Source of the DNA: a virus
Lineage: Duplodnaviria; Heunggongvirae; Uroviricota; Caudoviricetes
Direction: 5' to 3' (one strand)
Virus record (IMG/VR): IMGVR_UViG_3300037067_014938
Coordinates: 1 to 17,434 of that record
Length of the DNA: 17,434 nucleotides
Position 1 is the stretch's first letter. The number at the start of each line of letters is the position of its first letter. Both the position numbers and the translations under genes were made by a program. This document shows positions 1 to 17,434 of this stretch, piece by piece. Below the pieces are notes generated by a model, which did no database searches, was not told the DNA's origin, and saw only the letters and a program-made list of their open reading frames with translations.

Positions 1-482
1 GCATATGTCACCGAGTCAGGGCCAAATGCTGAGCTATCAGCCCAGTTCCATACAGCCCCAGCTAACTCAAACTTAGTTTTAACAGTTGTTGTATCCCAGT
101 ACTTGCCAAAGTAGCCAGTAAACGCACCATTGGTGGTATCTATTTTAGTTGCAGAATCAGCATGTTTAGCATATGTTACCGAGTCAGGGCCAAATGCTGA
201 ACTATCAGCCCAGTTCCATACAGCACCAGCCAACTCAAATTTAGTTTTAATAGTTGTCGTATCCCAGTAATGACTAAGGCTATCTCCTAAATCAACATCT
301 TTTACTATATTGGCATCTGCTGGTTCATATACACCCGGATGACCATGAAAGTATGTAGCATAATGCACAGACAAGTAGCCAGTGAATGCACCATTGGTGG
401 TGTCTATTTTAGTTGCAGAATCAGCATGTTTAGCATATGTTACCGAGTCGGGGCCAAATGCTGAGCTATCAGCCCAATTCCA
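1..482 (-). repeat. In-frame coding tandem repeat, 168-bp (56-aa) unit with one 96-bp insertion
   Basis: GCATATGT(C/T)ACCGAGTC starts at 1, 169 and 433 (offsets 168 and 264). Unit peptide is WNWADSSAFGPDSVTYAKHADSATKIDTTNGAFTGYFGKYWDTTTVKTKFELAGAV. Most differences between copies are synonymous. Confidence 0.95.
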
Positions 483-3498: not shown

Positions 3499-5349
3499 TT
3501 ATGATATATGAAGAGACATGGGTTTTACCTGATCAAGTAGCGTACTGTAGTCAATATTTGTTAACTCTTCATCTATAAGTTCTCTCATTCTTCCTACTGC
3601 ATATAATAACGCTGAATATAAATCTTTCTTTCCAGACATCCTTTTTCCTGTTCGTGGATCGACAGATTCAATATCAAATTTTGCACCCTTACCCGCTGGT
3701 ATAGCTTTTACTCTTACTAATTGACTTACTAATGTTTCTATATGCCCGGCTGATTCAAAGATTATAGTATTTTCATGATGGTATCTAAGTGGACGTGGAA
3801 AAATAAGAGACATATTTTCTATGATACCTCGCATATATCCATTAAATAACATATTTTGTTCTTGAGTAGTAGCATATAGTTTTAATATTGGCATTCCTTT
3901 TCTTACTTCTGTTTTATACGTTGGATCATAAATAGGTCGTTTGTTTATTCCAAGACTCATTAAATAATCGGCATCTGCTAAAAGATCAGATAATTCATAG
4001 CCACCACCTCTTGAATCCATAGCCACAGAAACAATATTAAATTTTTCCATTAAGTTATAAATTAATTTTACACGTTCTTGTTGACTCATTTTATTTTTTT
4101 CAAATGCGTAGACTACAGCCACATAATTTTTTAATTTACATGATTTTCCTACTTCATAAAATGAACATTGTTCACCAAGATTAGCTGTTGCACATTTTGA
4201 TATATCTCGTTCTTTATTATTTAAGGCACCAACTTTTATAACTACAAGTGCTGTATTATCACCAGATGGGGCCGTATCAACTCCAAGCAAACAATAAGCT
4301 GAACAACTCTCTAATGGTTCTAAAAATAAATCATCTTCTCTATCAAAAGATATTTCTTGTCCTTTTACAATACAATCGTACGGAAAATATCCACCCTGTA
4401 AATTAAGGGGTATATTTTTATTTTCTGAGTTCCATAAGGAAATATCTGTAGTTGGTATATTTAACTTTTGAAGAATTCTTTCATAGTTAATTCCCCATGT
4501 CATTATACGTCTTCCATCGGATGTCTTATAAAAAGTATCTTCTAAATTAAACTCATATACTGAAACATCATTAGCCGATAATGTTTTATCAACAACCTCA
4601 TCCGGAAGTGTAGTTAAATCTTCTTTATTTACATTTTCAAGTAATGATTTATAATATGCATATTGCATATAAAAATCTCTATACGTATAATCACAAGTAG
4701 AAATAGCAATAGACATATTTTTAATTGGTTGTTTATCCTCTGGAAGACTTGGATCATACAATACGTTCATCATAGGATCAAGAACAGCTTGATACAAATT
4801 TGAAGAAATCAAAAATGCCTCATCTTGTCCTAAAGTATGACATCTAATACCACGAATTGAATCACCTTCGGTTGATGCCGCTAGTGGAATACCAAGTATA
4901 GAAGAACCATTTGTAAAATCTATAGACCAGTATGATGGATCTTTTAATATTATTTTTTTAGGGTTACTGACACAACCTAAAGCAAATTGTACATTTTCTT
5001 GTCCGCCTAAATGACATTTTATAATTTTTTCGCATTCATATAAAACAATTTTACTTCCTCTATAACCTTGTCCCGCTGCAGCTACTTGTTTTAAGTTTGG
5101 ATAAAGTATCGCACGAAGTACATACAAAATTGCTAATAATATTGTTTTCCCCATACCACGAGAAGCAAAAAATAAATTAATTGGTTTACCCAATCCCCAA
5201 TCACGCAATACTAATGAATGATGGGGAGATAGTTTAAGCCCTAATAAATCTTTTGCTGCTACATCAAGGTGTTTACGATAAAAATAAATAGGAAACAATC
5301 TATCAATTGTTTCATTTATTGTAAATTGTGTTTTATTCAATTGGGTCAT
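3499..5349 (-). CDS. terL: Phage terminase large subunit
   Basis: Walker A ASRGMGKT, IRGIR followed by Walker B LGQDEAF, RNase H-like nuclease acidic residues (LLGVDTA, AMDSRGGG, KKDLYSA); 616 aa. Confidence 0.92.
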   Translation of the reverse strand: MTQLNKTQFTINETIDRLFPIYFYRKHLDVAAKDLLGLKLSPHHSLVLRDWGLGKPINLFFASRGMGKTILLAILYVLRAILYPNLKQVAAAGQGYRGSKIVLYECEKIIKCHLGGQENVQFALGCVSNPKKIILKDPSYWSIDFTNGSSILGIPLAASTEGDSIRGIRCHTLGQDEAFLISSNLYQAVLDPMMNVLYDPSLPEDKQPIKNMSIAISTCDYTYRDFYMQYAYYKSLLENVNKEDLTTLPDEVVDKTLSANDVSVYEFNLEDTFYKTSDGRRIMTWGINYERILQKLNIPTTDISLWNSENKNIPLNLQGGYFPYDCIVKGQEISFDREDDLFLEPLESCSAYCLLGVDTAPSGDNTALVVIKVGALNNKERDISKCATANLGEQCSFYEVGKSCKLKNYVAVVYAFEKNKMSQQERVKLIYNLMEKFNIVSVAMDSRGGGYELSDLLADADYLMSLGINKRPIYDPTYKTEVRKGMPILKLYATTQEQNMLFNGYMRGIIENMSLIFPRPLRYHHENTIIFESAGHIETLVSQLVRVKAIPAGKGAKFDIESVDPRTGKRMSGKKDLYSALLYAVGRMRELIDEELTNIDYSTLLDQVKPMSLHIS

Positions 5350-7339: not shown

Positions 7340-7611
7340 ATATCTTAGTATTACATAATCAACCGTATAGCAACAAAAAAGTCTTAAATAGGTTTCGAGC
7401 CGCTGATATCAAAGTAGCCCCAGAAGATTTTATTTTAGTGCTAAAAGTAAAAAGAAATGTACCAACGGAAGTTCTCAATAAAACTTGGGATTTGTTATTT
7501 GTAGATTCATCTTCGACAGCATTTGTGGATTATGAACATTACTTACGCAAAATGCGTAAAAAAGGTAATCCAATAATAAAATCTTTTAGTTATAGGACTG
7601 TAGGCCAATGA
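7336..7611 (+). CDS. Hypothetical protein (91 aa)
   Basis: ATGA overlaps at both ends; GGAGAGG RBS. Confidence 0.75.
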   Translation: MNILVLHNQPYSNKKVLNRFRAADIKVAPEDFILVLKVKRNVPTEVLNKTWDLLFVDSSSTAFVDYEHYLRKMRKKGNPIIKSFSYRTVGQ

Positions 7612-8465
7612 AAATAATCGGTATACATGGAAAAGCAAAATCCGGAAAAGATGAAATAGCTAAAATATTATGTTACTCATACGGTTGTTTACATATTACC
7701 TTCGCGGATAAAGTTAAAGAATATGGAATAAAGTATTTTGATTTAACAAAAGAAGTTTGTTATGGCACAAAAACAAAGGAAAGCAGACTCATTCTTCAAG
7801 GAATAGGTAATGGCATTAGACAACTTTTAACAAATGATTCTTTTTTAGTCAAAAGTATTAACCGTATTAGTATTGACAAATTAACTCCAAATGATGACTA
7901 CATAATAAGTGGTGATACCATTGGAGTATCGGGATACCCTACATGGGTAGAAGATATCGCGATTAAAGAATTTAATCTAACCCAATCAGAATTAAAATCA
8001 AAAAAGAAGTTAGTTAAAATTATATTAAGAGGAATTAGTACTCTAATTAAAGAAGAATATCAAACATTAATTAATGCAACAATAAAACAAAAGATATCAG
8101 GGGATCTTATATGGGTGCAACTTTTAATAGAACGATGCAAAGATATTGATGGAGTTATTGTAATATCAGATGTTAGGTATCAAAACGAAAAAGAATTTAT
8201 TGATAAAAACGGGGTCTGCATAAAAGTGATAAGAGAAGACAAACCGGATATTGAAACTGGAGAAACCCATCCATCAGAGATTAATTTAGATGAGATAAAA
8301 GAATCTGAATGGTTTTTTATTATTAGGAACATGCATAAAGAAAATTGGGAAGAATTACTAACTATTCAAACCAGTAATTTAATAAGTAAATTAAGAACAA
8401 AAAAATTCTTTTCACAAGAATATATAAAAACTAAATTTAAGACAAGTGGAGATTTGTATGATTAA
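7608..8465 (+). CDS. Phage-type deoxynucleoside monophosphate (dNMP) kinase with internal insertion/duplication
   Basis: P-loop GKAKSGKD, FADKVK, R-x-x-LQ-x-x-G, IWV, VISDVRYQNE and HPSE, in the order seen in the T4 gp1/T5-like dNMP kinase family. Confidence 0.88.
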   Translation: MKIIGIHGKAKSGKDEIAKILCYSYGCLHITFADKVKEYGIKYFDLTKEVCYGTKTKESRLILQGIGNGIRQLLTNDSFLVKSINRISIDKLTPNDDYIISGDTIGVSGYPTWVEDIAIKEFNLTQSELKSKKKLVKIILRGISTLIKEEYQTLINATIKQKISGDLIWVQLLIERCKDIDGVIVISDVRYQNEKEFIDKNGVCIKVIREDKPDIETGETHPSEINLDEIKESEWFFIIRNMHKENWEELLTIQTSNLISKLRTKKFFSQEYIKTKFKTSGDLYD

Positions 8466-8736
8466 GCATTATGCAAGTTTTGAACATCACGGAAAAACAG
8501 TATTCTCTGTTTGTGGATTAAGAGGAAAACATAGAAAATATTGTTTATGCTTTCAATGTTCAAAATTTAAACCGGATAAAAGAGACGAAAATTGTGCTAT
8601 TGCAAATGATGTGTATAACCTGTGTATAGCCCATAATTTAACAACCCCTGTTTTTGAATGTCCAGAATTCAATCCGATTCAAGGAAAAGATGGATACATG
8701 ATTTGGACTATCAGTTCTATTCAGGAAACTAAGTAA
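8458..8736 (+). CDS. Small Cys-rich hypothetical protein (92 aa), probable metal binder
   Basis: ATG at 8458 follows GGAG by 7 nt; 7 Cys including CLCFQC and ECPEF. Confidence 0.7.
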   Translation: MIKHYASFEHHGKTVFSVCGLRGKHRKYCLCFQCSKFKPDKRDENCAIANDVYNLCIAHNLTTPVFECPEFNPIQGKDGYMIWTISSIQETK

Positions 8737-9038
8737 TGGATTTACATGAAACAATTTTAAAATTAGACAATTATAAATGCAGATATTCTGGGTGTACAAG
8801 ACAAGAATTACAGGTTCATCATATTATACCTCGGTCACAAGGTGGCAAAGATACAGAATGGAATATGATAACTTTATGTTATTATCATCATGATTTAATT
8901 ACACGCAATAAATTATCTGATGAATTTATACTAGGGTTACATTTAGGAAATTCTTATTTTAGGTGGACAAGAGCATTAAAATGGCACTTAATTAAACAAC
9001 AACTACGGAAAAAAGGCAATAAAAATGAGAAAAGATAA
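8736..9038 (+). CDS. HNH endonuclease
   Basis: C-x4-C...LQVHHIIPRSQGGKDTEWNMITLCYYHH: HNH beta-beta-alpha-metal motif with Zn ligands. Confidence 0.9.
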   Translation: MDLHETILKLDNYKCRYSGCTRQELQVHHIIPRSQGGKDTEWNMITLCYYHHDLITRNKLSDEFILGLHLGNSYFRWTRALKWHLIKQQLRKKGNKNEKR

Positions 9039-11079
9039 GTCACTTTCTATTGAACTTTATGAAAGAATAAAAGGCACAGTTGCACCAGTATTAGAACAAT
9101 TTCTATCTATATCTCCCGATGAAAGATTAGAAAGGGAACAACATGGAGAAAATTTGGCAACTATATTAACCGATGCACTTCATCCAGTTATTGAACATAC
9201 CAGAATTAGCTCTATTCTTATTCTTATGGAAGAGGGTATAGGAAATATGGTTATGCTTACTCCAGTTTTAAGAAATTTAAAAAGCACTCATCCGGGTTTG
9301 AAAATAACTGTTCTTTGTAAGAATCCCGCCGCTCAGGTAATCCAGGGATGGGAATGTGTAGATAAAGTCATTACTGAATTTGATTATAATTATTATGATT
9401 TGGTTTATATAACCATATGGGGACAACAGCTAGCCCAAAAGTATAGTGAAGAATTAAAACAATATACGAAATATGTCCTTGCATCATCTTTGAAAACATT
9501 TCATGAAACAATGCAACACATGTCCGTGGCCTCATTCTTAGAATCATCTACTAATTTGAGTGATACCCATTGCCAAGTCGCATATGATGAGACATCAAAG
9601 TCAATACTTGATTATACACACAATAAAGGAAAGTATATTATATTTGCAAATACAGCATTAAGACTTCCCGGTGATCCGTGGAAATCAAAACGTTGGCCAT
9701 ATTATATTGAATTAGCTGAAATAATAAAAAATAAACATCCTGAGTATACGGTGTACCTTGTTGGAACAAAAGACGACGCTGAAGAATTCGAAGGAGTAAA
9801 ATTACCAGATAATATGGATCTCAAATTTTTTGATTCATTAGATATTCCACATTTGGCATATTTAATATCAAATGCAGAGTTCTTTGTTGGCAATGATTCA
9901 GGGCCAGCACATATTGCTGCAGCAGTTGGAACTAAGACATATGTCTTATTTGCACCAACTCTTATAAGCAAAAATAAGCCCCTTGGTAAAAATGTAACTA
10001 TCCTTCATAAGAATATACCCTGCTCCCCTTGTCAATATACTGAGAGATTTGGAAATTGTGATTGTATAGGTTATATGTCTGCACATGAAGTTTATAATGA
10101 AATTTTTTATCCACAACAAACAAAACCTTCAGTATTATTAGTTGGAGATACTTCTTCGGGTGCATTTAGAAATGAGATTTCAATCAAAAGAGTATTAGAA
10201 AAAGAATTAAAAATGAAAGTAACAATGTATGAATATAGACAACGAGAAAATAAATTAAAAAGTAATATTGAGATGACATATGAATTACTTAATAATATAG
10301 TGCATAACTCATATGATTATGTGCTTATTTGTGGAGGACAAACTCTAGTTCCTGATATTCTTTCGACGCTACCCCGATTATCCCCAAAAACAAAACTTAT
10401 CAATTGGTACGTGGATAATCGTAAAACTGTTGAACCTTGGTTTGCTAGATTAAGCTCCATTTGTAAGGCATCTTTTTGGTCTACTGGTGATCCTAATTTA
10501 CTTTCAAAAGTTTTTTCTCAAACTCAAAGACCATGTATGTTCTTGCCTATTACTCCGGATGAACATCTGTTCAAACCTATGCCTGAAGTAAAAAAAGATA
10601 TAGATGTACTGTTTGTTGGTACACCACACTCTAAAGAAAGGGTTGAACTTTTAGAATATCTTGTTAAAAATGGAATAAAAATTGAAATTTATGGTGATGG
10701 GAAATGGCCAGAATCACTAAAGAAATATGTGCATCCCGGAGTGTTTGATAAGGATTTTGTTAACTTGCTAAATCGTGCCAAGTTAGTTCTTAACATTAAC
10801 ATAGTTAATGATGTTCCTTTATATTTTTCAGATAGATATTTTCAACCCATGGCAGTTAAAACTGTAGGTTTGAATAAGCGTGTTCCAAACATAGAAGATA
10901 TGTTTGAAGATAAAAAACATATGTTATTGTATAATGCACCCGAAGATTGTTTAAAGTTAATTCAAGAATATCTTCCCAAAACGGAGGAACTTCAGAAAAT
11001 TTCTGAGGAAGGACATAAACTTTATATCGAAAAGTACACCTTGACTAAAATGCTTAACCAAATGTTTGAGGTAATATAA
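9025..11079 (+). CDS. Bifunctional glycosyltransferase: GT9 (heptosyltransferase-like) fused to a CgeB-like GT-B module
   Basis: GT9 motifs GIGNMVMLTPVLRNLK, KRWP, FVGNDSGPAHIAAAVGTKTYVLF and PCSPC in the N-terminal half; CgeB-like DVLFVGT, RVELLE, IYG-x-x-KW, KLVLNI and SDRYF in the C-terminal half. Confidence 0.85.
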   Translation: MRKDKSLSIELYERIKGTVAPVLEQFLSISPDERLEREQHGENLATILTDALHPVIEHTRISSILILMEEGIGNMVMLTPVLRNLKSTHPGLKITVLCKNPAAQVIQGWECVDKVITEFDYNYYDLVYITIWGQQLAQKYSEELKQYTKYVLASSLKTFHETMQHMSVASFLESSTNLSDTHCQVAYDETSKSILDYTHNKGKYIIFANTALRLPGDPWKSKRWPYYIELAEIIKNKHPEYTVYLVGTKDDAEEFEGVKLPDNMDLKFFDSLDIPHLAYLISNAEFFVGNDSGPAHIAAAVGTKTYVLFAPTLISKNKPLGKNVTILHKNIPCSPCQYTERFGNCDCIGYMSAHEVYNEIFYPQQTKPSVLLVGDTSSGAFRNEISIKRVLEKELKMKVTMYEYRQRENKLKSNIEMTYELLNNIVHNSYDYVLICGGQTLVPDILSTLPRLSPKTKLINWYVDNRKTVEPWFARLSSICKASFWSTGDPNLLSKVFSQTQRPCMFLPITPDEHLFKPMPEVKKDIDVLFVGTPHSKERVELLEYLVKNGIKIEIYGDGKWPESLKKYVHPGVFDKDFVNLLNRAKLVLNINIVNDVPLYFSDRYFQPMAVKTVGLNKRVPNIEDMFEDKKHMLLYNAPEDCLKLIQEYLPKTEELQKISEEGHKLYIEKYTLTKMLNQMFEVI

Positions 11080-11366
11080 TGGATAGAAAAACTAATGTCA
11101 TGCATGTAACTCCAGAAATGACAGATAATCAAGCTGATATAGTTGGCGTTCTTTCATTTTCTCAATTAATGGTTGAAAGATTAATTGAGGCAAAAGAACA
11201 AGGAAAACATGGATGGCATACTAATTTAATTACATTAGAGTACTTAGAAAATAAATTAGATCTCGCTGTTAAAAATAATGATTATCTTGATATTGCTAAT
11301 TATGCTATGATGATTTATCACAAAAAAGAAATGTTAAAAGAGCTTATTAATAAACATGAGGATTAA
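11079..11366 (+). CDS. Small all-alpha phage protein, possibly NTP-pyrophosphatase-like fold
   Basis: TAATG overlap with the upstream gene; motif GKHGW...LENKL...DYLDIANYAMM recalls a common phage hypothetical family. The fold assignment is a guess. Confidence 0.5.
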   Translation: MDRKTNVMHVTPEMTDNQADIVGVLSFSQLMVERLIEAKEQGKHGWHTNLITLEYLENKLDLAVKNNDYLDIANYAMMIYHKKEMLKELINKHED

Positions 11367-11613
11367 TATGCCGATTAATACAGAAAAATTTCAAGTGACT
11401 ATCGTTTTAAATGAACTTGATGGTTCACGAAATAAGAAAAAATTAATAGCATTTGATTCAGAAGAACAACGAGATGGTTTTTTAAAAAAATGTAATCGTC
11501 ATGTATTATATGATTACTGGAGTTATTCATATGGGTTAACTTTTTTAGAGCTTTCTGATGGATCATTAATTAATTATTCACACATAGTTAGAATAGAAAA
11601 AGGAAATGTATGA
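11356..11613 (+). CDS. Hypothetical protein (85 aa)
   Basis: Overlaps both neighbours; no recognised motif. Confidence 0.65.
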   Translation: MRINMPINTEKFQVTIVLNELDGSRNKKKLIAFDSEEQRDGFLKKCNRHVLYDYWSYSYGLTFLELSDGSLINYSHIVRIEKGNV

Positions 11614-12668
11614 GAATTATATATGCAAGAATGGCGGGTTACGGTTTTGTTTCAACTCCATCTGATGCCGTAGTAAGAGAGTTAGAAAATTTAGGACATA
11701 CTGTTTTTTGGACTGATAACTTGTCATATTTACCAACTGACAAATATGATTTTGTATTTTCTCCATATGAATCAGCAACAATTTTGGGGGATGCTATATC
11801 TAAGATTTTGGGTGTACCCCATTATGCTCATATTGAAGTTGTACCGCCGTGGAGATATATTCAAAATATAGATTTTCAAAACTATGGTTTGTCAGCAAAT
11901 GACCCCGAATTACAGCCAGATATTTTCAGAAAAACACGGGCATATTATGCCCAGGTTTTAATGGCCTATAAAAATGCTACTATTTGTAGTACATCTAATA
12001 AATGTAGGTTAGATTACATGCAAATAATGAGCGAAAGACAAAATATATTACTCAGATATCCATCTATTGATACAAGAATAATAGAATGTGCAAAAAAGAT
12101 GTACTCACCTAAAAAAGACCCTAAAAAGATAATTACAATTTCTAGAGCAATGCCAATAAAAAGATACGACTTACTAATAAAAGTAATGAATGAAATTAAA
12201 ACTCCAAATATGACTTGGACTATCATTGGTGAAGGTCCAATGATTGAAATTGTTAAAAAAGAATTAACAAATCCAAACATTAAATTAGAAATCCTTGGAG
12301 TAAAGTGGGGATGGGCAAAATGGTATGAACTAATGAAAGCTAGTTACATGATATATGCCATGGGAGGCATGCCACCTATCGAAGCTGCAATGCTAGATGT
12401 AATGCCAGTGGTAATAGAAAATGAATCTACATTACACTTACCGGAATTTGATAAATTTATGGAGTATAACTTTAACAAAAATATGCCCATCTTTAAGTCC
12501 AATAAGATAAAAGAAATGGCTCAACGTATGGATGAAGAGATTCTTAATAAAGATGTAGCACCGGACCTTCTTATAATAAAAGATGACTTTCTTAATGGAA
12601 AAATGGGTGTAACAACGTCAAAACAAAATGCAATTCAATTAATTGACAGGATGAGCCATGTTGTCTAA
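11610..12668 (+). CDS. GT4-like (GT-B fold) glycosyltransferase
   Basis: C-terminal Rossmann-like segment IITISRAMPIKRYDLLIK...WTIIGEGP...GMPPIEAAM. Confidence 0.75.
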   Translation: MRIIYARMAGYGFVSTPSDAVVRELENLGHTVFWTDNLSYLPTDKYDFVFSPYESATILGDAISKILGVPHYAHIEVVPPWRYIQNIDFQNYGLSANDPELQPDIFRKTRAYYAQVLMAYKNATICSTSNKCRLDYMQIMSERQNILLRYPSIDTRIIECAKKMYSPKKDPKKIITISRAMPIKRYDLLIKVMNEIKTPNMTWTIIGEGPMIEIVKKELTNPNIKLEILGVKWGWAKWYELMKASYMIYAMGGMPPIEAAMLDVMPVVIENESTLHLPEFDKFMEYNFNKNMPIFKSNKIKEMAQRMDEEILNKDVAPDLLIIKDDFLNGKMGVTTSKQNAIQLIDRMSHVV

Positions 12669-13617
12669 ATTTTTAATAACAGGTGGAGCGGGTTTCGTTG
12701 GCGGGAATTTAGTTAGATATTTGCTTGCCAATTCAGACGTAACCTCTCATGTTACAATTCTTGATAATTTTTCTACTAAGGGTTCCTTAGAAAATGCCAA
12801 AGGTATCAAAGATGAATTTAAGGGTAAAGTAACTCTTATTAAAAATAACCTATACTCTGCAAGTTCCAAACCAGAATTGTTTACAATGGTAAAAAAACAT
12901 GATTATATTATGCATCTCGCAACGTGTGATATCAGTCAAAGTTCTATAAATCCAGAACAAGCCGTATATACGAATATACATGGAACAAGAGAAGTGTTAG
13001 AAGCATGCAAAAAATATGAAAAAAGATTATTTTATGCCTCTTCAGCTTCAGTGTATGGAAATCAGTTGATATTACCAATTCCTGAAGATACTGTCTTACA
13101 TCCATTATCTATGTATGCTGTTACAAAATTAACAGGAGAACAACTTTGTTTATTATACCACGATGAATATAATGTTCAAGTTTCTATTGGGCGGTACTCA
13201 AATGTTTACGGGCCTAATTATTTTATTGCTAACCCTTATAGTGGATTAATAACAAAGTTACTTGCTTTATTTAAAAAAGGAAAAATTCCCCAATCAATTG
13301 AAGTAAAAGGTGATGGATCTCAAACTAGGGATTATGTTCATGTATCTGATATAATATATGCATCTATGTTAATTTTATTTTCGCCTAGAGCAATAGGTGA
13401 AATATTTAATATTGGCACTGGGATAGAAACTAGTGTAAATCAAGTTATCAATTTATTTAGAGAAACTTTTGATGTACGAGTTTATCATACAAGTGATAAC
13501 CATATTGATAATATTAGACGAAGAAGTTTAAATGCAGAAAAAATAAGATCAAAACTCAAATGGACTCCCACGGTTTCTTTAAAAAATGGGATAGACGGGT
13601 TGTTAAGAAATGTGTAA
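12658..13617 (+). CDS. NAD-dependent nucleotide-sugar epimerase/dehydratase (extended SDR)
   Basis: GGAGFVG NAD-binding motif, ASSASVYG, catalytic YAVTK (YxxxK), RYSNVYGP, GDGSQTRDYVHV, FNIGTG. Confidence 0.93.
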   Translation: MLSKFLITGGAGFVGGNLVRYLLANSDVTSHVTILDNFSTKGSLENAKGIKDEFKGKVTLIKNNLYSASSKPELFTMVKKHDYIMHLATCDISQSSINPEQAVYTNIHGTREVLEACKKYEKRLFYASSASVYGNQLILPIPEDTVLHPLSMYAVTKLTGEQLCLLYHDEYNVQVSIGRYSNVYGPNYFIANPYSGLITKLLALFKKGKIPQSIEVKGDGSQTRDYVHVSDIIYASMLILFSPRAIGEIFNIGTGIETSVNQVINLFRETFDVRVYHTSDNHIDNIRRRSLNAEKIRSKLKWTPTVSLKNGIDGLLRNV

Positions 13618-14635
13618 AATTGGGATTATTGGATATGACGCCCCTACTGGATTAGGGGTGATTATTTCTGAATTCAAAAAACATTTAGATATTTCAGAAC
13701 ACCTTATTATTAAACACCCTTCATTTATAAATAGTCCAATAAATTGTACAAAAAATGCTGGAGAATGCAGCGATGATGAGTTTATTACTTTTGTAGAACA
13801 ATCCACATTTGACATACTTGTTATTATAGAAACTCCATTTAACTGGAATATTCTTCATATGGCCCATAAATTGGGTATAAAAATCGTATATATTCCTATG
13901 ATGGACGCCATGTCAATAAACACAGTTAATAAATACCATATGTTTATAGATAAGGTTCTTTGTTTTACAAGGTATAGCTTTAAACATTATAAAGAATACT
14001 TTAAAAAAAGTTCAATAGTCTCATATCTGCCTTATCCGGTAGATACAGATATTTTTTCTCCAGAAAGACTGTTAAATGTTTCTAATAAAAAGTTATTTCT
14101 TCATAACCAAGGCAATGGAGGTGCACATTTTAGAAAAGGTTCTGATTTAATTTATCAAGCATTTAAAAATTTACCATCTCTAACTTGCCATGTTAATAAA
14201 CAACCAACATTGAATAAAATGTATCATTTACCAAATGATTTACCTAATTTAACTATTAAGACAATGTTATATAATGAACCAGCAGATGCATATTCATATG
14301 GAAGGATATATTTAGCTCCCTCTAAACGAGAGGGATTAGGGTTACCTATATTAGAAGCTATGGCTTGTGGTCTTCCAGTGATAACTACGGATGCTCCCCC
14401 GATGAATGAGCATGGTAAAAATTTATTAGTTTCAGCAAAACAAATATATTACACTAAAGATAATGATACTCCATTTTTAGATATATCTGTAGATGATCTT
14501 ATTTGTGTTATAAAATTTGCTTCTAGTAACTTGTCGTATATGACAGACCTTTCAAAAGAGAATAGAGATTATATGATCTCTAATCAATCATGGGAAGCAT
14601 TAAAACAAAAATATATTGAATATATGGAAAATTAA
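13610..14635 (+). CDS. GT4 glycosyltransferase
   Basis: RKG motif and EGLGLPILEAMACGLPVITTD (E-x7-E retained). Confidence 0.9.
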   Translation: MCKIGIIGYDAPTGLGVIISEFKKHLDISEHLIIKHPSFINSPINCTKNAGECSDDEFITFVEQSTFDILVIIETPFNWNILHMAHKLGIKIVYIPMMDAMSINTVNKYHMFIDKVLCFTRYSFKHYKEYFKKSSIVSYLPYPVDTDIFSPERLLNVSNKKLFLHNQGNGGAHFRKGSDLIYQAFKNLPSLTCHVNKQPTLNKMYHLPNDLPNLTIKTMLYNEPADAYSYGRIYLAPSKREGLGLPILEAMACGLPVITTDAPPMNEHGKNLLVSAKQIYYTKDNDTPFLDISVDDLICVIKFASSNLSYMTDLSKENRDYMISNQSWEALKQKYIEYMEN

Positions 14636-14637
14636 TT

Positions 14638-14940
14638 ATGCCAACTTATACGTATAAATGTAGCTCATGTAAGAGTAAATTTGACGCATATTCACCTAAA
14701 TACGACTATTTTTTTAGGACAATTTCTCAATGCTGCGGTGCAATCAGCTATAGGGTTTTTTCGTTGGGCATTTTTGCTATAAAAATAAAATCAACGGAGG
14801 TAACCCATAAAACAAAACGAAATGTTAGTAAACTTACTAATGGCATACCTATTGGTGAAGTTCCTGGTGATAAAGAGTACACCAAGGAATATGGCGGACA
14901 TAAAATTGGTGAAAAAGGATATATAGGACCATTACCATAA
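14638..14940 (+). CDS. FmdB-like zinc-ribbon protein
   Basis: MPTYTYKCSSC...SQCCG...RVFS matches the MPxYxYxCxxC zinc-ribbon pattern. Confidence 0.75.
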   Translation: MPTYTYKCSSCKSKFDAYSPKYDYFFRTISQCCGAISYRVFSLGIFAIKIKSTEVTHKTKRNVSKLTNGIPIGEVPGDKEYTKEYGGHKIGEKGYIGPLP

Positions 14941-15890
14941 TGAATATATTAATATGCGGAACATTTGATATTTCAAATTCAACTAGACATGAAGTTAAGG
15001 TTGCTGATTGTCTTAAAGAACTTGGTCATAAAATAATTCTGTATGACTACAGAGAAAATTTACGTTATTACGGCGAGTCTGTATGTATAACTGGGTTATT
15101 TATAAAAGCAAGAGCTACACAAACGGACTTAATAGTTATCTTTTCAGGAAAAGGGCTATCCGCAAAACTTGTTGAATTTCATAATTCAACAAATATACCA
15201 ATACATATATGGTATCACGATTATAACTTAAACTCTCCAAAACAACAATGGTTAGTTAAGTTAGCCTTAATCAGCAATAAAGTATTTTTAACTACGGGTG
15301 ATTTAAACTTCAGAAATTTATACCCAAACAAATATAACGAGCCTGCTATATTTTTACCAACAACAGCTTATGATAAAGTATTTTTCCCTGTTGAGATTTC
15401 AGAAAGAGAATATGACATATCGTTTATGGGTACGCCACATACGCACCGTATTGAATTAATGCGTTACTTGGTAGGTAACGGGGTACGCCTAGTTATCCAT
15501 AGTTATCCATCAATGGATTTTAAATGGCCGGAAGATTTAAAACCATATGTAACAGTTGCTAAATTTAATACGTTAGCAAACATAGTTTTGAACAGTTCAA
15601 AATTAATTTTAAATCCTAATGTTACTCAAGATGTACCACTTTGTTTCTCTGATAGATATTTTATGCCATTAGCCACTAAAACATGTGGGATTAATGAATA
15701 TTTTGAAGGATATGAGGAACTATTTAAACATGACGTCCATATGAGCATATGGAAAACGTATGACGAGTGTTTACACCAAATAAAACAACTGTTAACTGAT
15801 AAAGAAAAACGAATAAAGATTGCTCAAAATGGATATGACTTATATATGGAAAAATACAGACTTCAAGATATGGTAAAAAAATTATTATGA
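14940..15890 (+). CDS. CgeB-like glycosyltransferase, paralog of the C-terminal module of the 9025-11079 gene
   Basis: DISFMGTPH, RIEL, KWPEDLKPYV, KLILN, DVPLCFSDRYF and final NGYDLYMEKY helix all align with the 9025-11079 C-terminal half. Confidence 0.82.
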   Translation: MNILICGTFDISNSTRHEVKVADCLKELGHKIILYDYRENLRYYGESVCITGLFIKARATQTDLIVIFSGKGLSAKLVEFHNSTNIPIHIWYHDYNLNSPKQQWLVKLALISNKVFLTTGDLNFRNLYPNKYNEPAIFLPTTAYDKVFFPVEISEREYDISFMGTPHTHRIELMRYLVGNGVRLVIHSYPSMDFKWPEDLKPYVTVAKFNTLANIVLNSSKLILNPNVTQDVPLCFSDRYFMPLATKTCGINEYFEGYEELFKHDVHMSIWKTYDECLHQIKQLLTDKEKRIKIAQNGYDLYMEKYRLQDMVKKLL

Positions 15891-16735
15891 ATTTACTACA
15901 TGAACAAGTAATAAGAAATTACTATGTTGAAAAATGCATAGAATCTGCCACTAAACAAGGATTATTAACGGGGTCGCTCCATCTTTCAATTGGACAAGAG
16001 GCGTGTGATGTTGGTATAATAAATGCTTTTGATAACCCGCTAGTCTTCGGAAATCATAGAAGTCATGGACAATTTTTAGCAGCCACAAATAACCTTGATA
16101 GTCTAATTATTCAATTAAAAAATGGAATGAGTCAGCATTTGTATGCAGAAAATAAGTTTATCTCCCATGGTGTACAAGGAGGGTTATGCCCTATAGCCGT
16201 AGGAAATGCTTTAGCTTTTAAAAATAAGGGTATAAAAAGAAGAGTTCTATGTTTCATAGGAGATGGCACACTCGCTCAGGGTACTTTTACAGAATCCTTG
16301 TATCTAGCATCAATTTATCAGGCACCAATAACATTTATTATAATAGATAATAAATATTCCATGTCAAATACTAAACTTCCTTCATGTAAAGAAAATTTTT
16401 ATTTTGTAACAGACTTAATACGAGCTTACAATATTAAATGTTATGTGTTGTTGGACTCAAGAAATGTTTTAGGGATATATAACATGGGAGCAAATATAGA
16501 TGCCCTCGCTGGCCCAGATTCTATTTATATAAGATGCAATAGGTTATGTGGCCACTCTTGTTCAGATACTCAAGTGTACAGACCTAAAGAAGAATTAACA
16601 AAAGAATACTTTGATAAATTTTCTCCATTTATTTTTTCAAAAAATGAGATAAATCCTGTTATAGCCTATAAAATAAAGACAGAGGTAATAGAAACCTTTG
16701 TTAAACATTTACCTGAGTTTAAATATGTGCACTAG
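15887..16735 (+). CDS. ThDP-dependent dehydrogenase E1 alpha-like subunit
   Basis: HLSIGQEA, NHRSHG, ThDP/Mg motif GDG-x26-DN, and RLCGHSCSD corresponding to the E1 alpha GHS loop; 282 aa. Confidence 0.92.
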   Translation: MNLLHEQVIRNYYVEKCIESATKQGLLTGSLHLSIGQEACDVGIINAFDNPLVFGNHRSHGQFLAATNNLDSLIIQLKNGMSQHLYAENKFISHGVQGGLCPIAVGNALAFKNKGIKRRVLCFIGDGTLAQGTFTESLYLASIYQAPITFIIIDNKYSMSNTKLPSCKENFYFVTDLIRAYNIKCYVLLDSRNVLGIYNMGANIDALAGPDSIYIRCNRLCGHSCSDTQVYRPKEELTKEYFDKFSPFIFSKNEINPVIAYKIKTEVIETFVKHLPEFKYVH

Positions 16736-17264
16736 ACATGAAATAAACCAAGCATTACGTGATTTAATGACAAAAAATCCCAATATAATCTTATTAGGAC
16801 AAAGTATACGCGACCCATATGGCGGAGTAATGAAATGCACTAGAGGACTAACTAAAGATTTCAGTGATAGAATTATTGATTTACCGATATGTGAATCTGG
16901 ATCTGCCGGACTTGCAATAGGTTTAGCTATGCGAGGATATATTCCAATATTAGAAATTATGTTTTCTGATTTTATAACGTTATGTTACGACCAACTATAT
17001 AATATGCTCGGAAAAATATATGGGATGCATCAATTAAACACAAAGATTATTATCCGGACAATGCAGAATGATGATAAAATGTATGGTCCATCCCATAGTC
17101 AAGTTATGCACGCTGTAATAGAATCTCTTAATGAAGGAAAGTATCCCTGCCCGGTATCTTGGATTTACACTAGTAAATACAAAGTTTATTCCAAGATTAT
17201 TGAAGAAGCCTTGGAAAAAGCAAATCCTTTAACAGTTATTCTTGAACGAAAGGAACTATATTAA
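16725..17264 (+). CDS. E1 beta-like subunit, pyrimidine-binding domain only (179 aa)
   Basis: ATG at 16725 preferred over the TTG at 16698. INQAL...LLGQSI...YGGV, DLPICES (conserved Glu), EIMFSDF, GPSHSQ; ends at VILERKELY-stop with no transketolase C-terminal domain. Confidence 0.88.
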   Translation: MCTRHEINQALRDLMTKNPNIILLGQSIRDPYGGVMKCTRGLTKDFSDRIIDLPICESGSAGLAIGLAMRGYIPILEIMFSDFITLCYDQLYNMLGKIYGMHQLNTKIIIRTMQNDDKMYGPSHSQVMHAVIESLNEGKYPCPVSWIYTSKYKVYSKIIEEALEKANPLTVILERKELY

Positions 17265-17434
17265 TGAATACACTAGTGTTTTTACCTGGAGGTAAAGGAT
17301 TTGAGGTTGCTTGGGATTTTATATATAATAATCCAAATATTTTAACTTCATACGATTCAACAAATGTGATGATCATTGATGACCGTCCAATACGTATTAA
17401 TACCTATGATTGTATAACTGATGAACAAACTGGA
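17264..17434 (+). CDS. 5' part of a CDS truncated by the window edge; possible PglD/NeuD-like sugar acyltransferase N-terminal domain
   Basis: TAATG overlap at 17262-17266; open to the end: MNTLVFLPGGKGFEVAWDFIYNNPNILTSYDSTNVMIIDDRPIRINTYDCITDEQTG. Beta strand-GG-x-G-helix...IDD loosely resembles PglD_N. Not in the ORF track. Confidence 0.55.
   Translation, partial: MNTLVFLPGGKGFEVAWDFIYNNPNILTSYDSTNVMIIDDRPIRINTYDCITDEQTG

What the first reader, a model, noticed from the sequence alone, without database searches (positions are those of the whole stretch)
9025..17434. Virus-encoded multi-enzyme glycan-building operon next to the packaging module
Seen in sequence: more than 8 kb of coupled genes encode five GT domains from three groups (GT9, two GT4-like, two CgeB-like), an SDR epimerase/dehydratase, a ThDP E1 alpha/beta pair and a possible acyltransferase, continuing past the window edge. 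No flippase, polymerase or ABC exporter is visible. Established: prophage serotype-conversion cassettes are small gtrABC-type membrane systems, and some actinobacteriophages glycosylate capsid and tail proteins using GTs encoded near structural genes. Inference: soluble enzymes with several linkage types plus their own sugar synthesis suggest stepwise assembly of a defined oligosaccharide on a cytoplasmic acceptor (virion protein or DNA). I do not recognise this combination as a described phage system, but I cannot verify novelty without a search.
Basis: partly seen in the sequence, partly recalled or inferred. Interest (0 to 1): 0.85.

Follow-up and report, generated by a model that had tools for sequence, protein, structure and literature searches.

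The report
Phage glycan-building cluster, flagellin-glycosylation ancestry
A 117-kb uncultured phage carries a real 9-kb block of soluble sugar-transferring and sugar-making enzymes. Its signature enzymes are related to bacterial genes that sit next to flagellin genes, so it most likely puts a variable sugar chain on a protein, probably the phage particle, though no acceptor has been shown.

Summary
Window 9025-17434, continuing to genome position 17986, encodes a GT9+CgeB-like fusion, two GT4-like enzymes, a second CgeB-like enzyme, an SDR, a ThDP E1 alpha/beta pair and a NeuD/PglD-type acyltransferase. All lack membrane segments.

It is phage DNA, not a chimera. GC is uniform, phage genes flank both sides, and nine independent contigs share the layout, one of them a complete 118-kb genome with terminal repeats.

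New evidence:
- **Flagellin link.** The nearest cellular relatives of the fusion carry TPR repeats and lie within 10 kb of a flagellin gene in 16 of 25 bacterial loci.
- **Second enzyme.** The phage also has that island type's other signature enzyme, a GT2-TPR, conserved inside its head-gene module.
- **Variable content.** Relatives keep the fusion, a GT4 and a zinc-ribbon protein but swap the sugar-synthesis genes.
- **DNA route unsupported.** No hydroxymethylase, TET/JBP or C5-methylase was found, while ThyX and a UDG-family gene are present.

Best reading, about 0.5: a phage-encoded protein O-glycosylation pathway, probably for the virion. Host-envelope, host-flagellin and DNA targets remain open.

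This scan has already noted flagellin-type glycosylation cassettes in other phages with different enzymes. I class this as a new variant of a known kind.

The parts
3499..5349 (-). Large terminase subunit (616 aa). It is transcribed divergently from the operon that holds the glycan cluster.
   Evidence: phrog_2 terminase large subunit, E 8e-9. It is 47-92% identical in nine related contigs.
1325..3487 (-). A 720-aa portal-sized head-module protein. The assignment is inferred from size and position.
   Evidence: No Pfam or PHROG hit. Conserved next to the terminase in relatives. Its counterpart on the P0026 contig has a weak Phage_Mu_F hit.
7608..8465 (+). dNMP kinase-like protein (285 aa), upstream in the same coupled operon.
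   Evidence: phrog_139, E 1.5e-25. Pfam DNMK is below cut-off. Present at this position in all relatives examined.
8736..9038 (+). HNH endonuclease (100 aa) directly upstream of the fusion gene.
   Evidence: Pfam HNH, 38.7 bits, and many PHROG HNH families.
9025..11079 (+). GT9 + CgeB-like fusion glycosyltransferase (684 aa, P0002). This is the conserved anchor gene of the cluster.
   Evidence: - Pfam GT9 83 bits and Glyco_trans_1_2 73.5 bits.
- AlphaFold2 model with pLDDT 90; the domain boundary (near residue 365) is read from the Pfam ranges and DSSP, and the Foldseek hits are GT-B enzymes.
- Foldseek top hits are GT9 3TOV, WaaF 1PSW and WaaC, then GT4 enzymes.
- 38 TPR-less homologues form one clade, SH-aLRT 100.
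- The GT9 'GD' motif reads 'GN'; N74 is invariant.
11079..11366 (+). Conserved 95-aa protein of unknown function (phrog_8298).
   Evidence: PHROG E 3.6e-13. Homologues sit next to or near the fusion in L004, L005, L006 and L008.
11356..11613 (+). An 85-aa protein of unknown function. It is not conserved beyond the closest relative.
   Evidence: No family hit. The only homologue is in L004.
11610..12668 (+). Core GT4-like glycosyltransferase (352 aa), specific to this phage lineage.
   Evidence: Glycos_transf_1 at 28.2 bits. Present in L004, L005 and L006.
12658..13617 (+). SDR nucleotide-sugar epimerase-type enzyme (319 aa).
   Evidence: Pfam Epimerase 178 bits. Best PDB matches are 4-epimerases (4ZRM, 6ZL6). 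The SSASVYG and YAVTK motifs are read directly from the translation.
13610..14635 (+). GT4 glycosyltransferase (341 aa) with an E-x7-E motif. It belongs to the variable part of the cluster.
   Evidence: Glyco_trans_1_4 49.5 bits. phrog_2170, E 4.9e-23. Sequence. No homologue in L004-L008.
14638..14940 (+). Zinc-ribbon protein (100 aa, FmdB-like CxxC...CxxC). It is conserved at the distal end of the cluster in relatives.
   Evidence: Zn_ribbon_8 below cut-off. Homologues in L005, L006, the P0026 contig and L046 lie just before SSB.
14940..15890 (+). Second CgeB-like glycosyltransferase (316 aa), a paralogue of the fusion's C-terminal half.
   Evidence: Glyco_trans_1_2 49.7 bits. 32-34% identical to the fusion's C-terminal domain.
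15887..16735 (+). Short ThDP-dependent E1 alpha-like subunit (282 aa).
   Evidence: E1_dh 82.8 bits. GDG-X27-N ThDP motif at residues 125-155. It belongs to a distinct 235-285-aa family.
16698..17264 (+). E1 beta-like subunit reduced to the pyrimidine-binding domain (188 aa).
   Evidence: Transket_pyr 76.1 bits, with no Transketolase_C domain. The same pairing recurs.
17264..17434 (+). Start of the NeuD/PglD/VioB-type hexapeptide acyltransferase (240 aa). The gene ends at genome position 17986, beyond the window.
   Evidence: Hexapep 51.9 bits. TIGR03570 at 77 bits, below its cut-off. It forms a conserved three-gene cassette with the E1 pair.

Best explanation
The block is the glycan-synthesis part of a phage-encoded protein O-glycosylation pathway.

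**Shown.** It is a fixed-position, content-variable gene cluster of a lineage of roughly 117-kb phages. It encodes five soluble GT-B domains plus sugar-nucleotide tailoring enzymes.

**Inferred.** During infection the SDR epimerase-type enzyme would convert host sugar nucleotides into unusual donors. So would the cassette of ThDP E1 alpha, E1 beta and acyltransferase, which perhaps adds a two-carbon acyl branch from a 2-oxo acid, as AviB1/AviB2 and Pau11/Pau12 are proposed to do. The GT9-CgeB fusion, the lineage-specific GT4, the second GT4 and the second CgeB-like enzyme would then build a short defined oligosaccharide on Ser/Thr of a protein in the cytoplasm. The TPR-bearing GT2 encoded in the head module is the likeliest acceptor-recognising or initiating enzyme, and a virion protein (capsid, decoration or tail) the likeliest acceptor.

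Swapping of the sugar-synthesis genes between relatives would change the glycan, much as O-antigen loci vary.
For: 1. **Phage origin.** The record is 117,045 bases with a CheckV estimate of 99%. GC is 0.28-0.34 across the window. Nine independent contigs share the order portal/terminase, then divergently dNMP kinase, HNH, GT9-CgeB, a variable block and SSB-PolA. One is a complete genome with terminal repeats.
2. **Flagellin islands.** The nearest cellular homologues of the fusion are about 30% identical over more than 90% of its length and carry N-terminal TPR repeats. A flagellin gene lies within 10 kb in L018 and L019 and in 14 of 23 GTDB loci, including 9 of the 10 with full flanks.
3. **Second signature enzyme.** The phage has a GT2-TPR at genome 107011-108468. 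It is homologous (E 1e-21 to 1e-32, over both domains) to the GT2-TPR genes that accompany the TPR-GT9-CgeB gene in these islands, directly flanking flagellin in L018, L025, L036 and L038.
4. **Head-module position.** That gene lies two genes upstream of a YonB/HK97-type capsid gene. It keeps its neighbours in two relatives.
5. **Shared sugar genes.** The GLF-like and HldE-like genes of relative L006 match genes of the L018 flagellin island at E 1e-37 and 1e-36.
6. **Precedents.** TPR-plus-GT flagellin glycosyltransferases (FlmG, PMC7591256) and GT9-related protein heptosyltransferases (TibC, PMC4358343) glycosylate proteins in the cytoplasm.
7. **Intact motifs.** The donor-binding motif GNDSGPAH, the ThDP motif and the GT4 E-x7-E motif are present.
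Against: - No acceptor is identified. Virion proteins show no Ser/Thr-rich tag or tail.
- The phage fusion has lost the TPR domain of its cellular relatives.
- The flagellin link is by gene neighbourhood only. I found no experimental work on this GT family.
- The 9-kb block is coupled to replication genes (dNMP kinase, SSB, PolA), not to late structural genes. Known phage DNA glycosyltransferases sit in such positions (Pyle et al.).
- The canonical GT9 catalytic Asp is Asn in the whole family, so that domain's chemistry is uncertain.
- A functional link between the head-module GT2-TPR and the cluster rests on co-occurrence in only three genomes. Both are absent from one 70%-complete distant relative.
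Confidence: 0.5

Rival explanations
1. Host-envelope remodelling. The soluble transferases act at the inner membrane on host lipid-linked intermediates, such as LPS core, O-antigen, capsule or the lipid-linked donor of a general O-glycosylation system. This would change the infected cell's surface, or the glycan placed on exported phage proteins. Host flippases and ligases would do the export.
For: - GT9 is the LPS heptosyltransferase family.
- Soluble GT4 and GT2 enzymes commonly work on undecaprenyl-linked acceptors (established knowledge).
- The E1 alpha/beta/acyltransferase cassette also occurs in an Acidobacteriota locus with GT2s, a formyltransferase and a Glycos_transf_4 initiating enzyme.
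- The phage encodes a GT-C-like membrane protein.
- An earlier scan note reports exported phage proteins rich in Bacteroidota-type sequons (not tested here).
Against: - The fusion's closest cellular relatives lie in flagellin islands, not LPS loci.
- All NCBIfam heptosyltransferase models score far below their cut-offs.
- The cluster has no initiating phosphoglycosyl transferase, flippase or ligase.
- The GT-C-like gene is missing from the complete relative G002.
- A strictly conserved core gene set at a fixed position is unusual for surface-conversion morons.
Confidence: 0.2
2. Re-glycosylation of host flagellin. The phage uses captured flagellin-island enzymes to alter the flagellar glycan. 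That could block superinfection or prevent progeny being trapped on flagella, if the phage adsorbs to flagella.
For: The GT9-CgeB fusion and the GT2-TPR are homologues of flagellin-island enzymes. The heptose and GLF-like genes in a relative match an island.
Against: - The phage fusion lacks the TPR domain.
- The phage enzymes form a deep separate clade at about 30% identity to the cellular ones, so this is not a recent capture.
- The GT2-TPR is embedded in the head module.
- New flagella would have to be built during a lytic cycle.
- No flagellar genes occur in the phage.
Confidence: 0.12
3. DNA hypermodification. The transferases glycosylate phage DNA to evade restriction, as in T-even phages and the metagenomic gene clusters of Pyle et al.
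For: - The cluster lies in one coupled operon with dNMP kinase, SSB and PolA. Relatives add MazG.
- Pyle et al. (10.1101/2023.12.21.572611) show phage GT-B enzymes related to LPS enzymes placing mono- to trisaccharides, including heptose, on 5hmC. These often pair with an epimerase and lie near polymerase or terminase genes.
- Variable content would fit an arms race with restriction systems.
Against: - No ThyA-type hydroxymethylase, TET/JBP dioxygenase or C5-methyltransferase is found in a genome estimated 99% complete.
- ThyX, a UDG-superfamily protein and a class II RNR point to canonical thymine.
- The homologues' neighbourhoods point to protein acceptors.
- Five transferase domains plus a branched or acylated sugar exceed any DNA glycan described so far.
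Confidence: 0.08
4. Metabolic support only. The genes are auxiliary metabolic genes that boost or redirect the host's sugar-nucleotide pools, with no dedicated phage glycan.
For: Sugar-nucleotide enzymes (SDR, 2-epimerase, heptose pathway) are common phage auxiliary genes, for example phrog_540.
Against: Five transferase domains serve no pool-boosting purpose. The conserved core consists of transferases, while the sugar-nucleotide enzymes are the variable part.
Confidence: 0.05

Closest known systems
Bacterial flagellin glycosylation islands with TPR-bearing glycosyltransferases (e.g. FlmG of Caulobacter, PMC7591256), here the uncharacterised TPR-GT9-CgeB plus GT2-TPR type in KSB1, Calditrichota, Latescibacterota, Nitrospirota and Brocadiaceae genomes
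   Same: - The GT9+CgeB-like domain pair is homologous end to end, at about 30% identity.
- A homologous GT2-TPR is also present.
- The islands have similar accessory sugar genes (HldE-like, GLF-like, SDR).
- The enzymes are soluble and cytoplasmic.
   Different: - The phage fusion has no TPR domain.
- The phage has no flagellin.
- The two enzymes are split between the replication operon and the head module.
- The phage proteins form their own deep clade.
- The bacterial family itself is uncharacterised.
Virion glycosylation of mycobacteriophages (Che8 and Corndog types; Freeman et al. 2023, Cell Host Microbe, cited in PMC12619734)
   Same: Phage-encoded soluble glycosyltransferases, some next to structural genes, are proposed or shown to place O-glycans on capsid and tail subunits.
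   Different: - Those systems have one to four genes and lie in the structural region.
- Their hosts are Actinobacteria.
- Here there are 11 or more genes with their own sugar tailoring and different GT families (GT9, CgeB-like).
- The host is probably Gram-negative (GH108 endolysin).
- No glycan has been demonstrated here.
Phage DNA sugar-hypermodification gene clusters (Pyle et al., bioRxiv 10.1101/2023.12.21.572611; Cell Rep 2024)
   Same: - Clusters of transferases plus epimerases or heptose-activating enzymes.
- They lie near polymerase or terminase genes.
- The transferases are related to LPS enzymes.
   Different: Those clusters depend on a C5-methyltransferase with a 5mYOX enzyme, or on a ThyA-like enzyme, to make 5hmC or 5hmU. 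None was found in this genome.
AviB1/AviB2 and Pau11/Pau12 E1 alpha/beta pairs that attach a C-4 acetyl branch to antibiotic sugars (PMC4753412)
   Same: A split pyruvate-dehydrogenase-E1-like ThDP enzyme with no E2 or E3 partner, sitting in a sugar-biosynthesis context.
   Different: - Both subunits here are much shorter (282 and 188 aa; beta lacks its C-terminal domain).
- They are always followed by a NeuD/PglD-type acyltransferase.
- No 4,6-dehydratase is evident.
- The chemistry is untested.
LPS heptosyltransferases WaaC/WaaF (GT9) and the protein heptosyltransferase TibC (PMC4358343)
   Same: GT-B fold with the GxDSGPxH donor-binding motif. The best structural matches are 3TOV, 1PSW and WaaC.
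   Different: - Scores fall below all NCBIfam equivalog cut-offs.
- The Asp13-equivalent residue is Asn.
- The domain is fused to a second GT-B domain.
- TibC is not among the top 50 structural matches.

Membership tests
Flagellin-island TPR-GT9-CgeB glycosyltransferase family (uncharacterised) | GT9 domain followed by a CgeB-like (Glyco_trans_1_2) domain, homologous over the full length | tested here: met
   About 29-33% identity over more than 90% of the query to P0041-P0057. 46 columns are invariant across phage and cellular members.
Flagellin-island TPR-GT9-CgeB glycosyltransferase family (uncharacterised) | N-terminal TPR repeats | tested here: not met
   The phage proteins start with a 60-residue helical segment and have no TPR hit. 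All 38 phage-type members lack TPR.
Flagellin-island TPR-GT9-CgeB glycosyltransferase family (uncharacterised) | Gene lies next to flagellin, FliD or FliS | tested here: not met
   No flagellin-, FliD- or FliS-like ORF in the phage genome at E<=1. By contrast, 16 of 25 cellular loci have one.
Phage virion glycosylation (mycobacteriophage type) | Glycosyltransferase genes within or beside the structural module | tested here: met
   The GT2-TPR lies two genes upstream of the capsid gene. The 9-kb cluster begins 2.8 kb from the packaging genes but belongs to the replication operon.
Phage virion glycosylation (mycobacteriophage type) | Glycan demonstrated on capsid or tail subunits | not testable with these tools
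   This needs virions and mass spectrometry.
Phage virion glycosylation (mycobacteriophage type) | Recognisable acceptor tail or tag on structural proteins | tested here: inconclusive
   No Ser/Thr-rich tail or window stands out in 29 head and tail proteins. Flagellin-type O-glycosylation has no strict sequon.
Phage DNA sugar hypermodification clusters | An enzyme that makes the 5-hydroxymethyl-pyrimidine handle (ThyA-like hydroxymethylase, or C5-MTase with a TET/JBP enzyme) | tested here: not met
   PF00303, PF12851 and PF00145 have no match in the whole genome at E 0.01-0.1, while control genomes do match.
Phage DNA sugar hypermodification clusters | Transferases placed among DNA-metabolism genes | tested here: met
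   The cluster is flanked by dNMP kinase and HNH on one side and by SSB, PolA and DUF4406 on the other.
LPS heptosyltransferase (GT9: WaaC, WaaF, WaaQ) | Score above the family's curated cut-offs | tested here: not met
   The Pfam GT9 domain passes (83 against 22 bits). NCBIfam equivalogs do not: 65.5 against 134.6, 52.4 against 170.2 and 42.6 against 185.3 bits.
LPS heptosyltransferase (GT9: WaaC, WaaF, WaaQ) | Catalytic Asp in the N-terminal GD motif (WaaC Asp13; recalled from the literature) | tested here: not met
   The motif reads IGNM. N74 is invariant in phage and cellular family members, whereas annotated heptosyltransferases II show IGD.
gtrABC-type serotype conversion | Membrane proteins GtrA (flippase), GtrB (GT2 on bactoprenol) and GtrC (GT-C) | tested here: not met
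   No protein of the cluster has a hydrophobic segment. A lone GT-C-like gene lies 14 kb away and is absent from relatives.
ThDP E1 alpha/beta sugar-branching pair (AviB1/AviB2 type) | Alpha subunit with a ThDP motif plus a beta subunit with the pyrimidine-binding domain, and no E2 or E3 | tested here: met
   GDG-X27-N at residues 125-155, and Transket_pyr at 76 bits. No lipoyl or E2 gene is nearby.
ThDP E1 alpha/beta sugar-branching pair (AviB1/AviB2 type) | A partner enzyme that supplies a keto-sugar nucleotide (4,6-dehydratase or decarboxylase) | tested here: inconclusive
   The only SDR has an epimerase-type motif. The cassette also occurs without an adjacent SDR.

The most novel reading that the evidence does not exclude
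The transferases glycosylate phage DNA by a route that needs no 5-hydroxymethyl-pyrimidine handle. This would be a new attachment chemistry, producing a strain-variable oligosaccharide on DNA. It would explain why the cluster is always welded into the dNMP kinase, (MazG), SSB and PolA operon.
Probability: 0.07. Interest if true: 0.9.

Novelty: new variant of a known kind. Interest (0 to 1): 0.6.

Why it matters
If the main reading is right, virion glycosylation is not a peculiarity of actinobacteriophages. A lineage of large phages, probably of Gram-negative hosts, would build variable, multi-sugar glycans on its own proteins with enzymes descended from flagellin-glycosylation machinery.

The cluster keeps a fixed position while its sugar genes are swapped. 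That pattern resembles O-antigen loci and implies selection on glycan structure, so it bears on phage-host recognition, particle stability and immune recognition of phages.

The work also gives a first functional context (flagellin) for an uncharacterised TPR-GT9-CgeB family. It defines a conserved three-gene cassette of short E1 alpha, E1 beta and an acyltransferase that may make an unusual sugar.

Tried and rejected
- **Chimera or host locus:** rejected on composition and conserved synteny.
- **Cultured relatives:** megablast of the window against GenBank phages found nothing. tblastn of the fusion gave one weak partial hit. PolA is at most 31.5% identical to known phages.
- **Complex prediction:** fusion with the adjacent 95-aa protein gave no verdict (score 0.01 against a mark of 0.32). 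This is not evidence either way.
- **Structure search:** it confirmed two GT-B modules but could not tell protein, lipid or DNA acceptors apart.
- **Promoter and terminator scan:** counts were no different from shuffled sequence.
- **Acceptor search:** looking for a Ser/Thr-rich tag in virion proteins found nothing distinctive.
- **Head-gene annotation:** PHROGs and Pfam named neither the capsid nor the protease. Only the language-model atlas identified the capsid protein. The 'protease/scaffold' label for the 612-aa protein remains a weak lead.
- **Wider terminase search:** it yielded one distant relative, 70% complete, that lacks both the fusion and the GT2-TPR. That is too little for a co-occurrence test.
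- **GT-C-like membrane protein as a missing step:** rejected as a core part because it is absent from relatives.
- **SDR as a 4,6-dehydratase feeding the ThDP enzyme:** not supported by its motif.

Full report
**What the window is.** The window is the first 17,434 bases of a 117,045-base IMG/VR virus record with a CheckV completeness estimate of 99%. The record's last 31 bases repeat its first 31 with one mismatch, so the assembly is probably circular. GC is 0.28-0.34 throughout the window and 0.30-0.43 over the genome, with no break at the cluster. No cultured phage resembles it at the DNA level. Its DNA polymerase A is at most 31.5% identical to known phages.

**The observation.**
- 9025-11079 encodes one 684-aa protein with Glyco_transf_9 (83 bits) and Glyco_trans_1_2, the CgeB-like family (73.5 bits).
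- 11610-12668 is a weak Glycos_transf_1 match (28.2 bits against a cut-off of 26.4).
- 12658-13617 is an SDR (Epimerase, 178 bits).
- 13610-14635 is a GT4 (49.5 bits) with an E-x7-E motif.
- 14940-15890 is a second CgeB-like enzyme (49.7 bits).
- 15887-16735 is E1_dh (82.8 bits) with an intact GDG-X27-N ThDP motif.
- 16698-17264 is Transket_pyr only (76.1 bits, 188 aa).

The gene that runs off the window ends at genome position 17986. It is a hexapeptide acyltransferase of the NeuD/PglB/VioB type. Three small proteins are interleaved: 95 aa (phrog_8298), 85 aa, and a 100-aa zinc ribbon. None of the 17 proteins from 6562 to 17986 has a hydrophobic segment. Starts and stops overlap or nearly touch from 7336 to beyond 20796.

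The block is therefore embedded in one long coupled operon. Upstream are a dNMP kinase (phrog_139, E 1.5e-25) and an HNH endonuclease. Downstream are SSB, DNA polymerase A, a DUF4406 protein and a sigma-70-like factor. The large terminase (phrog_2, E 8e-9) and a 720-aa portal-sized gene are transcribed divergently.

I make two corrections. The SDR reads SSASVYG and YAVTK, which is the epimerase pattern rather than the TDE pattern of 4,6-dehydratases; that rule is recalled from the literature. Its best solved relatives are 4-epimerases. The cluster also does not continue far past the window edge.

**Not a chimera, and a lineage trait.** The fusion protein has about 38 close homologues (42-59% identity, 670-716 aa, all without TPR). 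They form one clade with SH-aLRT support of 100. I labelled that clade by similarity; phage context was checked for nine contigs.

In every one of those nine contigs the gene sits in the same place. The contigs are L004-L008, the P0026 contig with L014, L015/L016, L046 and L047. On the five contigs whose sequence runs past the cluster, the order is portal and terminase, then divergently (MazG), dNMP kinase, HNH (no HNH called on L046), the fusion, a variable block, (zinc ribbon), SSB and PolA; the others break off earlier. One relative is a complete 118-kb genome with direct terminal repeats.

The widely retained genes are the fusion, a roughly 350-aa GT4 and the zinc-ribbon protein (absent from L015); the 95-aa protein was confirmed only in L004, L005, L006 and L008. 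The rest is swapped:
- **L005:** a GT2, a UDP-GlcNAc 2-epimerase, an SDR, a cupin and an RmlD-like reductase.
- **L006 and L047:** methyltransferases, a GLF-like flavoprotein, a TIM-barrel protein, an SDR and an HldE-like heptose-activating enzyme; L006 also has a GmhA-like SIS protein (L047 breaks off within the HldE-like gene).
- **The P0026 contig:** two Methyltransf_21 proteins, a formyltransferase and a 2-epimerase.

This is a fixed-position, content-variable glycan locus, comparable in behaviour to O-antigen loci.

**What kind of acceptor.** The key result comes from the cellular relatives of the fusion. They are about 30% identical over more than 90% of its length and carry N-terminal TPR repeats.

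Two of them were looked up directly and lie in textbook flagellin neighbourhoods. In a Brocadiaceae genome the neighbourhood holds FlaG, FliS, FliD, flagellin, two GT2-TPR genes, then TPR-GT9-CgeB, a GLF-like gene, an SDR, an HldE-like gene and a SIS gene. A second metagenomic contig has flagellin, FliD, a second flagellin, TPR-GT9-CgeB, a GT41-TPR and FliB.

A scan of one genome per GTDB species returned 23 further bacterial loci, from KSB1, Calditrichota, Latescibacterota, Nitrospirota, Brocadiaceae, Syntrophaceae and Cytophagia. Fourteen have a flagellin gene within 10 kb, including nine of the ten loci with full flanks. A rough chance expectation is about 1%, given a few flagellin loci per several-megabase genome; that figure is my inference.

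The phage also carries the islands' other signature enzyme. A GT2-TPR lies at genome 107011-108468 (Pfam GT2 28.6 bits plus TPR). It matches the GT2-TPR genes that accompany the TPR-GT9-CgeB gene in these islands, and that directly flank flagellin in L018, L025, L036 and L038, at E 1e-21 to 1e-32 across both domains. An earlier first-reader note of this scan gave me that lead.

That gene sits in the head module. The local order is proteins of 198, 75 and 135 aa, then GT2-TPR, a 612-aa protein, a 169-aa protein and a 326-aa YonB/HK97-type capsid protein (atlas score 0.98). It keeps its neighbours in the two relatives with enough sequence. Because the record is circular, the head module continues from the window's minus-strand packaging genes.

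TPR-plus-GT enzymes that recognise flagellin (FlmG, PMC7591256) and GT9-related enzymes that heptosylate proteins in the cytoplasm (TibC, PMC4358343) are established precedents. The best-supported reading is therefore a protein O-glycosylation pathway descended from flagellin-type machinery, with a virion protein as the likeliest acceptor.

**Why not DNA.** The position among replication genes matches the phage DNA-glycan clusters of Pyle et al. (10.1101/2023.12.21.572611). Those clusters include heptose additions and epimerase-dependent transferases. They all need 5hmC or 5hmU. This genome has no ThyA-type hydroxymethylase, no TET/JBP enzyme and no C5-methyltransferase; the searches were validated on control genomes. 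It does encode ThyX, a UDG-superfamily protein, RecA, primase and a class II RNR, which fits canonical thymine. I keep this rival at 0.08.

**Why not simply LPS or capsule.** GT9 is the LPS heptosyltransferase family, and the structural search returns 3TOV, WaaF and WaaC first. However, all NCBIfam heptosyltransferase equivalogs score far below cut-off. The canonical GD motif reads GN, with Asn74 invariant in both phage and cellular members. The homologues' neighbourhoods are flagellar.

Soluble GT4 and GT2 enzymes act on lipid-linked intermediates, and the host can export. The phage also has a GT-C-like polytopic protein at genome 31772-33352. That gene is absent from relatives, so it is not part of the conserved system. 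I keep host-envelope remodelling at 0.2 and host-flagellin re-glycosylation at 0.12.

**The ThDP cassette.** The short E1 alpha belongs to a distinct 235-285-aa family. In an Acidobacteriota genome and in an unrelated 130-kb phage contig it is again followed by a roughly 190-aa Transket_pyr protein and a hexapeptide acyltransferase, within glycan loci. This is a conserved three-gene cassette.

The nearest precedent is the AviB1/AviB2 and Pau11/Pau12 E1-type pair, proposed to add a C-4 acetyl branch from pyruvate to antibiotic sugars (PMC4753412). I infer ThDP-dependent transfer of a two-carbon unit to a sugar nucleotide, followed or accompanied by acylation. No dehydratase partner is evident, and the chemistry is untested.

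**Limits.**
- No acceptor is identified, and virion proteins show no Ser/Thr-rich tag.
- The complex prediction for the fusion with the 95-aa neighbour gave no verdict.
- Co-occurrence of the fusion and the GT2-TPR rests on three genomes, plus one incomplete distant relative that lacks both.
- The flagellin link is by neighbourhood only. I found no experimental paper on this family.

**Novelty and score.** Phage virion glycosylation, phage DNA glycan clusters and giant-virus glycan machineries are all known. This scan has repeatedly noted flagellin-type glycosylation cassettes in other phages built on Maf-like or FlmG-like enzymes. Three things are new here:
- the enzyme set: a GT9-CgeB fusion, a lineage-specific GT4 and the ThDP cassette;
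- the split architecture, with a recognition-type GT2-TPR in the head module and the synthesis block in the replication operon;
- the O-antigen-like variability at a fixed position.

I class it as a new variant of a known kind and score interest at 0.6.

Noticed in passing
genome 107011-108468 (minus strand; L003:9966-11423), outside the window: A GT2-TPR glycosyltransferase lies inside the head module, two genes upstream of a YonB/HK97-type capsid gene. It is homologous to the GT2-TPR genes beside flagellin in bacterial islands and is conserved with its neighbours in two relatives.
   Followed up: yes
genome 31772-33352 (minus strand; L002:15273-16853): A 526-aa polytopic membrane protein with nine or more hydrophobic segments looks GT-C/PMT_2-like (Pfam E 7e-4; atlas 0.99). 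It is absent from relatives G001, G002 and G005, so it is an accessory gene of this phage only.
   Followed up: partly
window 9025-11079, residues 68-77 of the fusion: The GT9 N-terminal motif reads MEEGIGNM where annotated heptosyltransferases have xLDxIGDx. Asn74 is invariant in phage and cellular members, so the usual catalytic Asp is replaced across the family. One Omnitrophota GT9 (P0101) shows the same IGNM.
   Followed up: partly
window 15887-17434 and on to genome 17986; also L017:10001-11979 and the P0135 contig: The short E1 alpha, the Transket_pyr-only beta and the hexapeptide acyltransferase form a conserved three-gene cassette. It recurs in an Acidobacteriota glycan/lipid locus and in an unrelated 130-kb phage contig.
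   Followed up: partly
window 1-31 and genome 117015-117045: The record's last 31 bases repeat its first 31 with one mismatch. The 'linear' record is probably a circular or permuted assembly, which places the window's packaging genes next to the head module at the far end.
   Followed up: partly
L020 (JAQTTP010000019.1) and L015 (P0032): Contigs carrying the phage-type fusion are filed in public MAGs as 'Candidatus ainarchaeum sp.' and 'Candidatus Dojkabacteria bacterium'. L015's gene content (terminase-sized and portal-sized genes, SSB, PolA) shows it is a mis-binned phage contig; L020 is only 3.6 kb and was judged by the 53%-identical phage-type fusion alone.
   Followed up: partly
genome 20251-20796 and 21055-21708 (L002:3752-4297, 4556-5209): A DUF4406 protein (nucleoside deoxyribosyltransferase-like) and a sigma-70-like factor follow PolA in the same operon. 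Some relatives add MazG upstream of the dNMP kinase.
   Followed up: no
window 8446-8736: A 96-aa cysteine-rich protein (9 Cys) with no family hit lies between the dNMP kinase and HNH genes. It is found only in the closest relative.
   Followed up: no
genome 65458-66033 (L010:8959-9534): The endolysin combines GH108 with PG_binding_3, a pairing typical of phages of Gram-negative hosts.
   Followed up: no
L047:12075-12731: In one relative a ClpP-like protease gene is inserted directly after the fusion gene, inside the glycan cluster.
   Followed up: no
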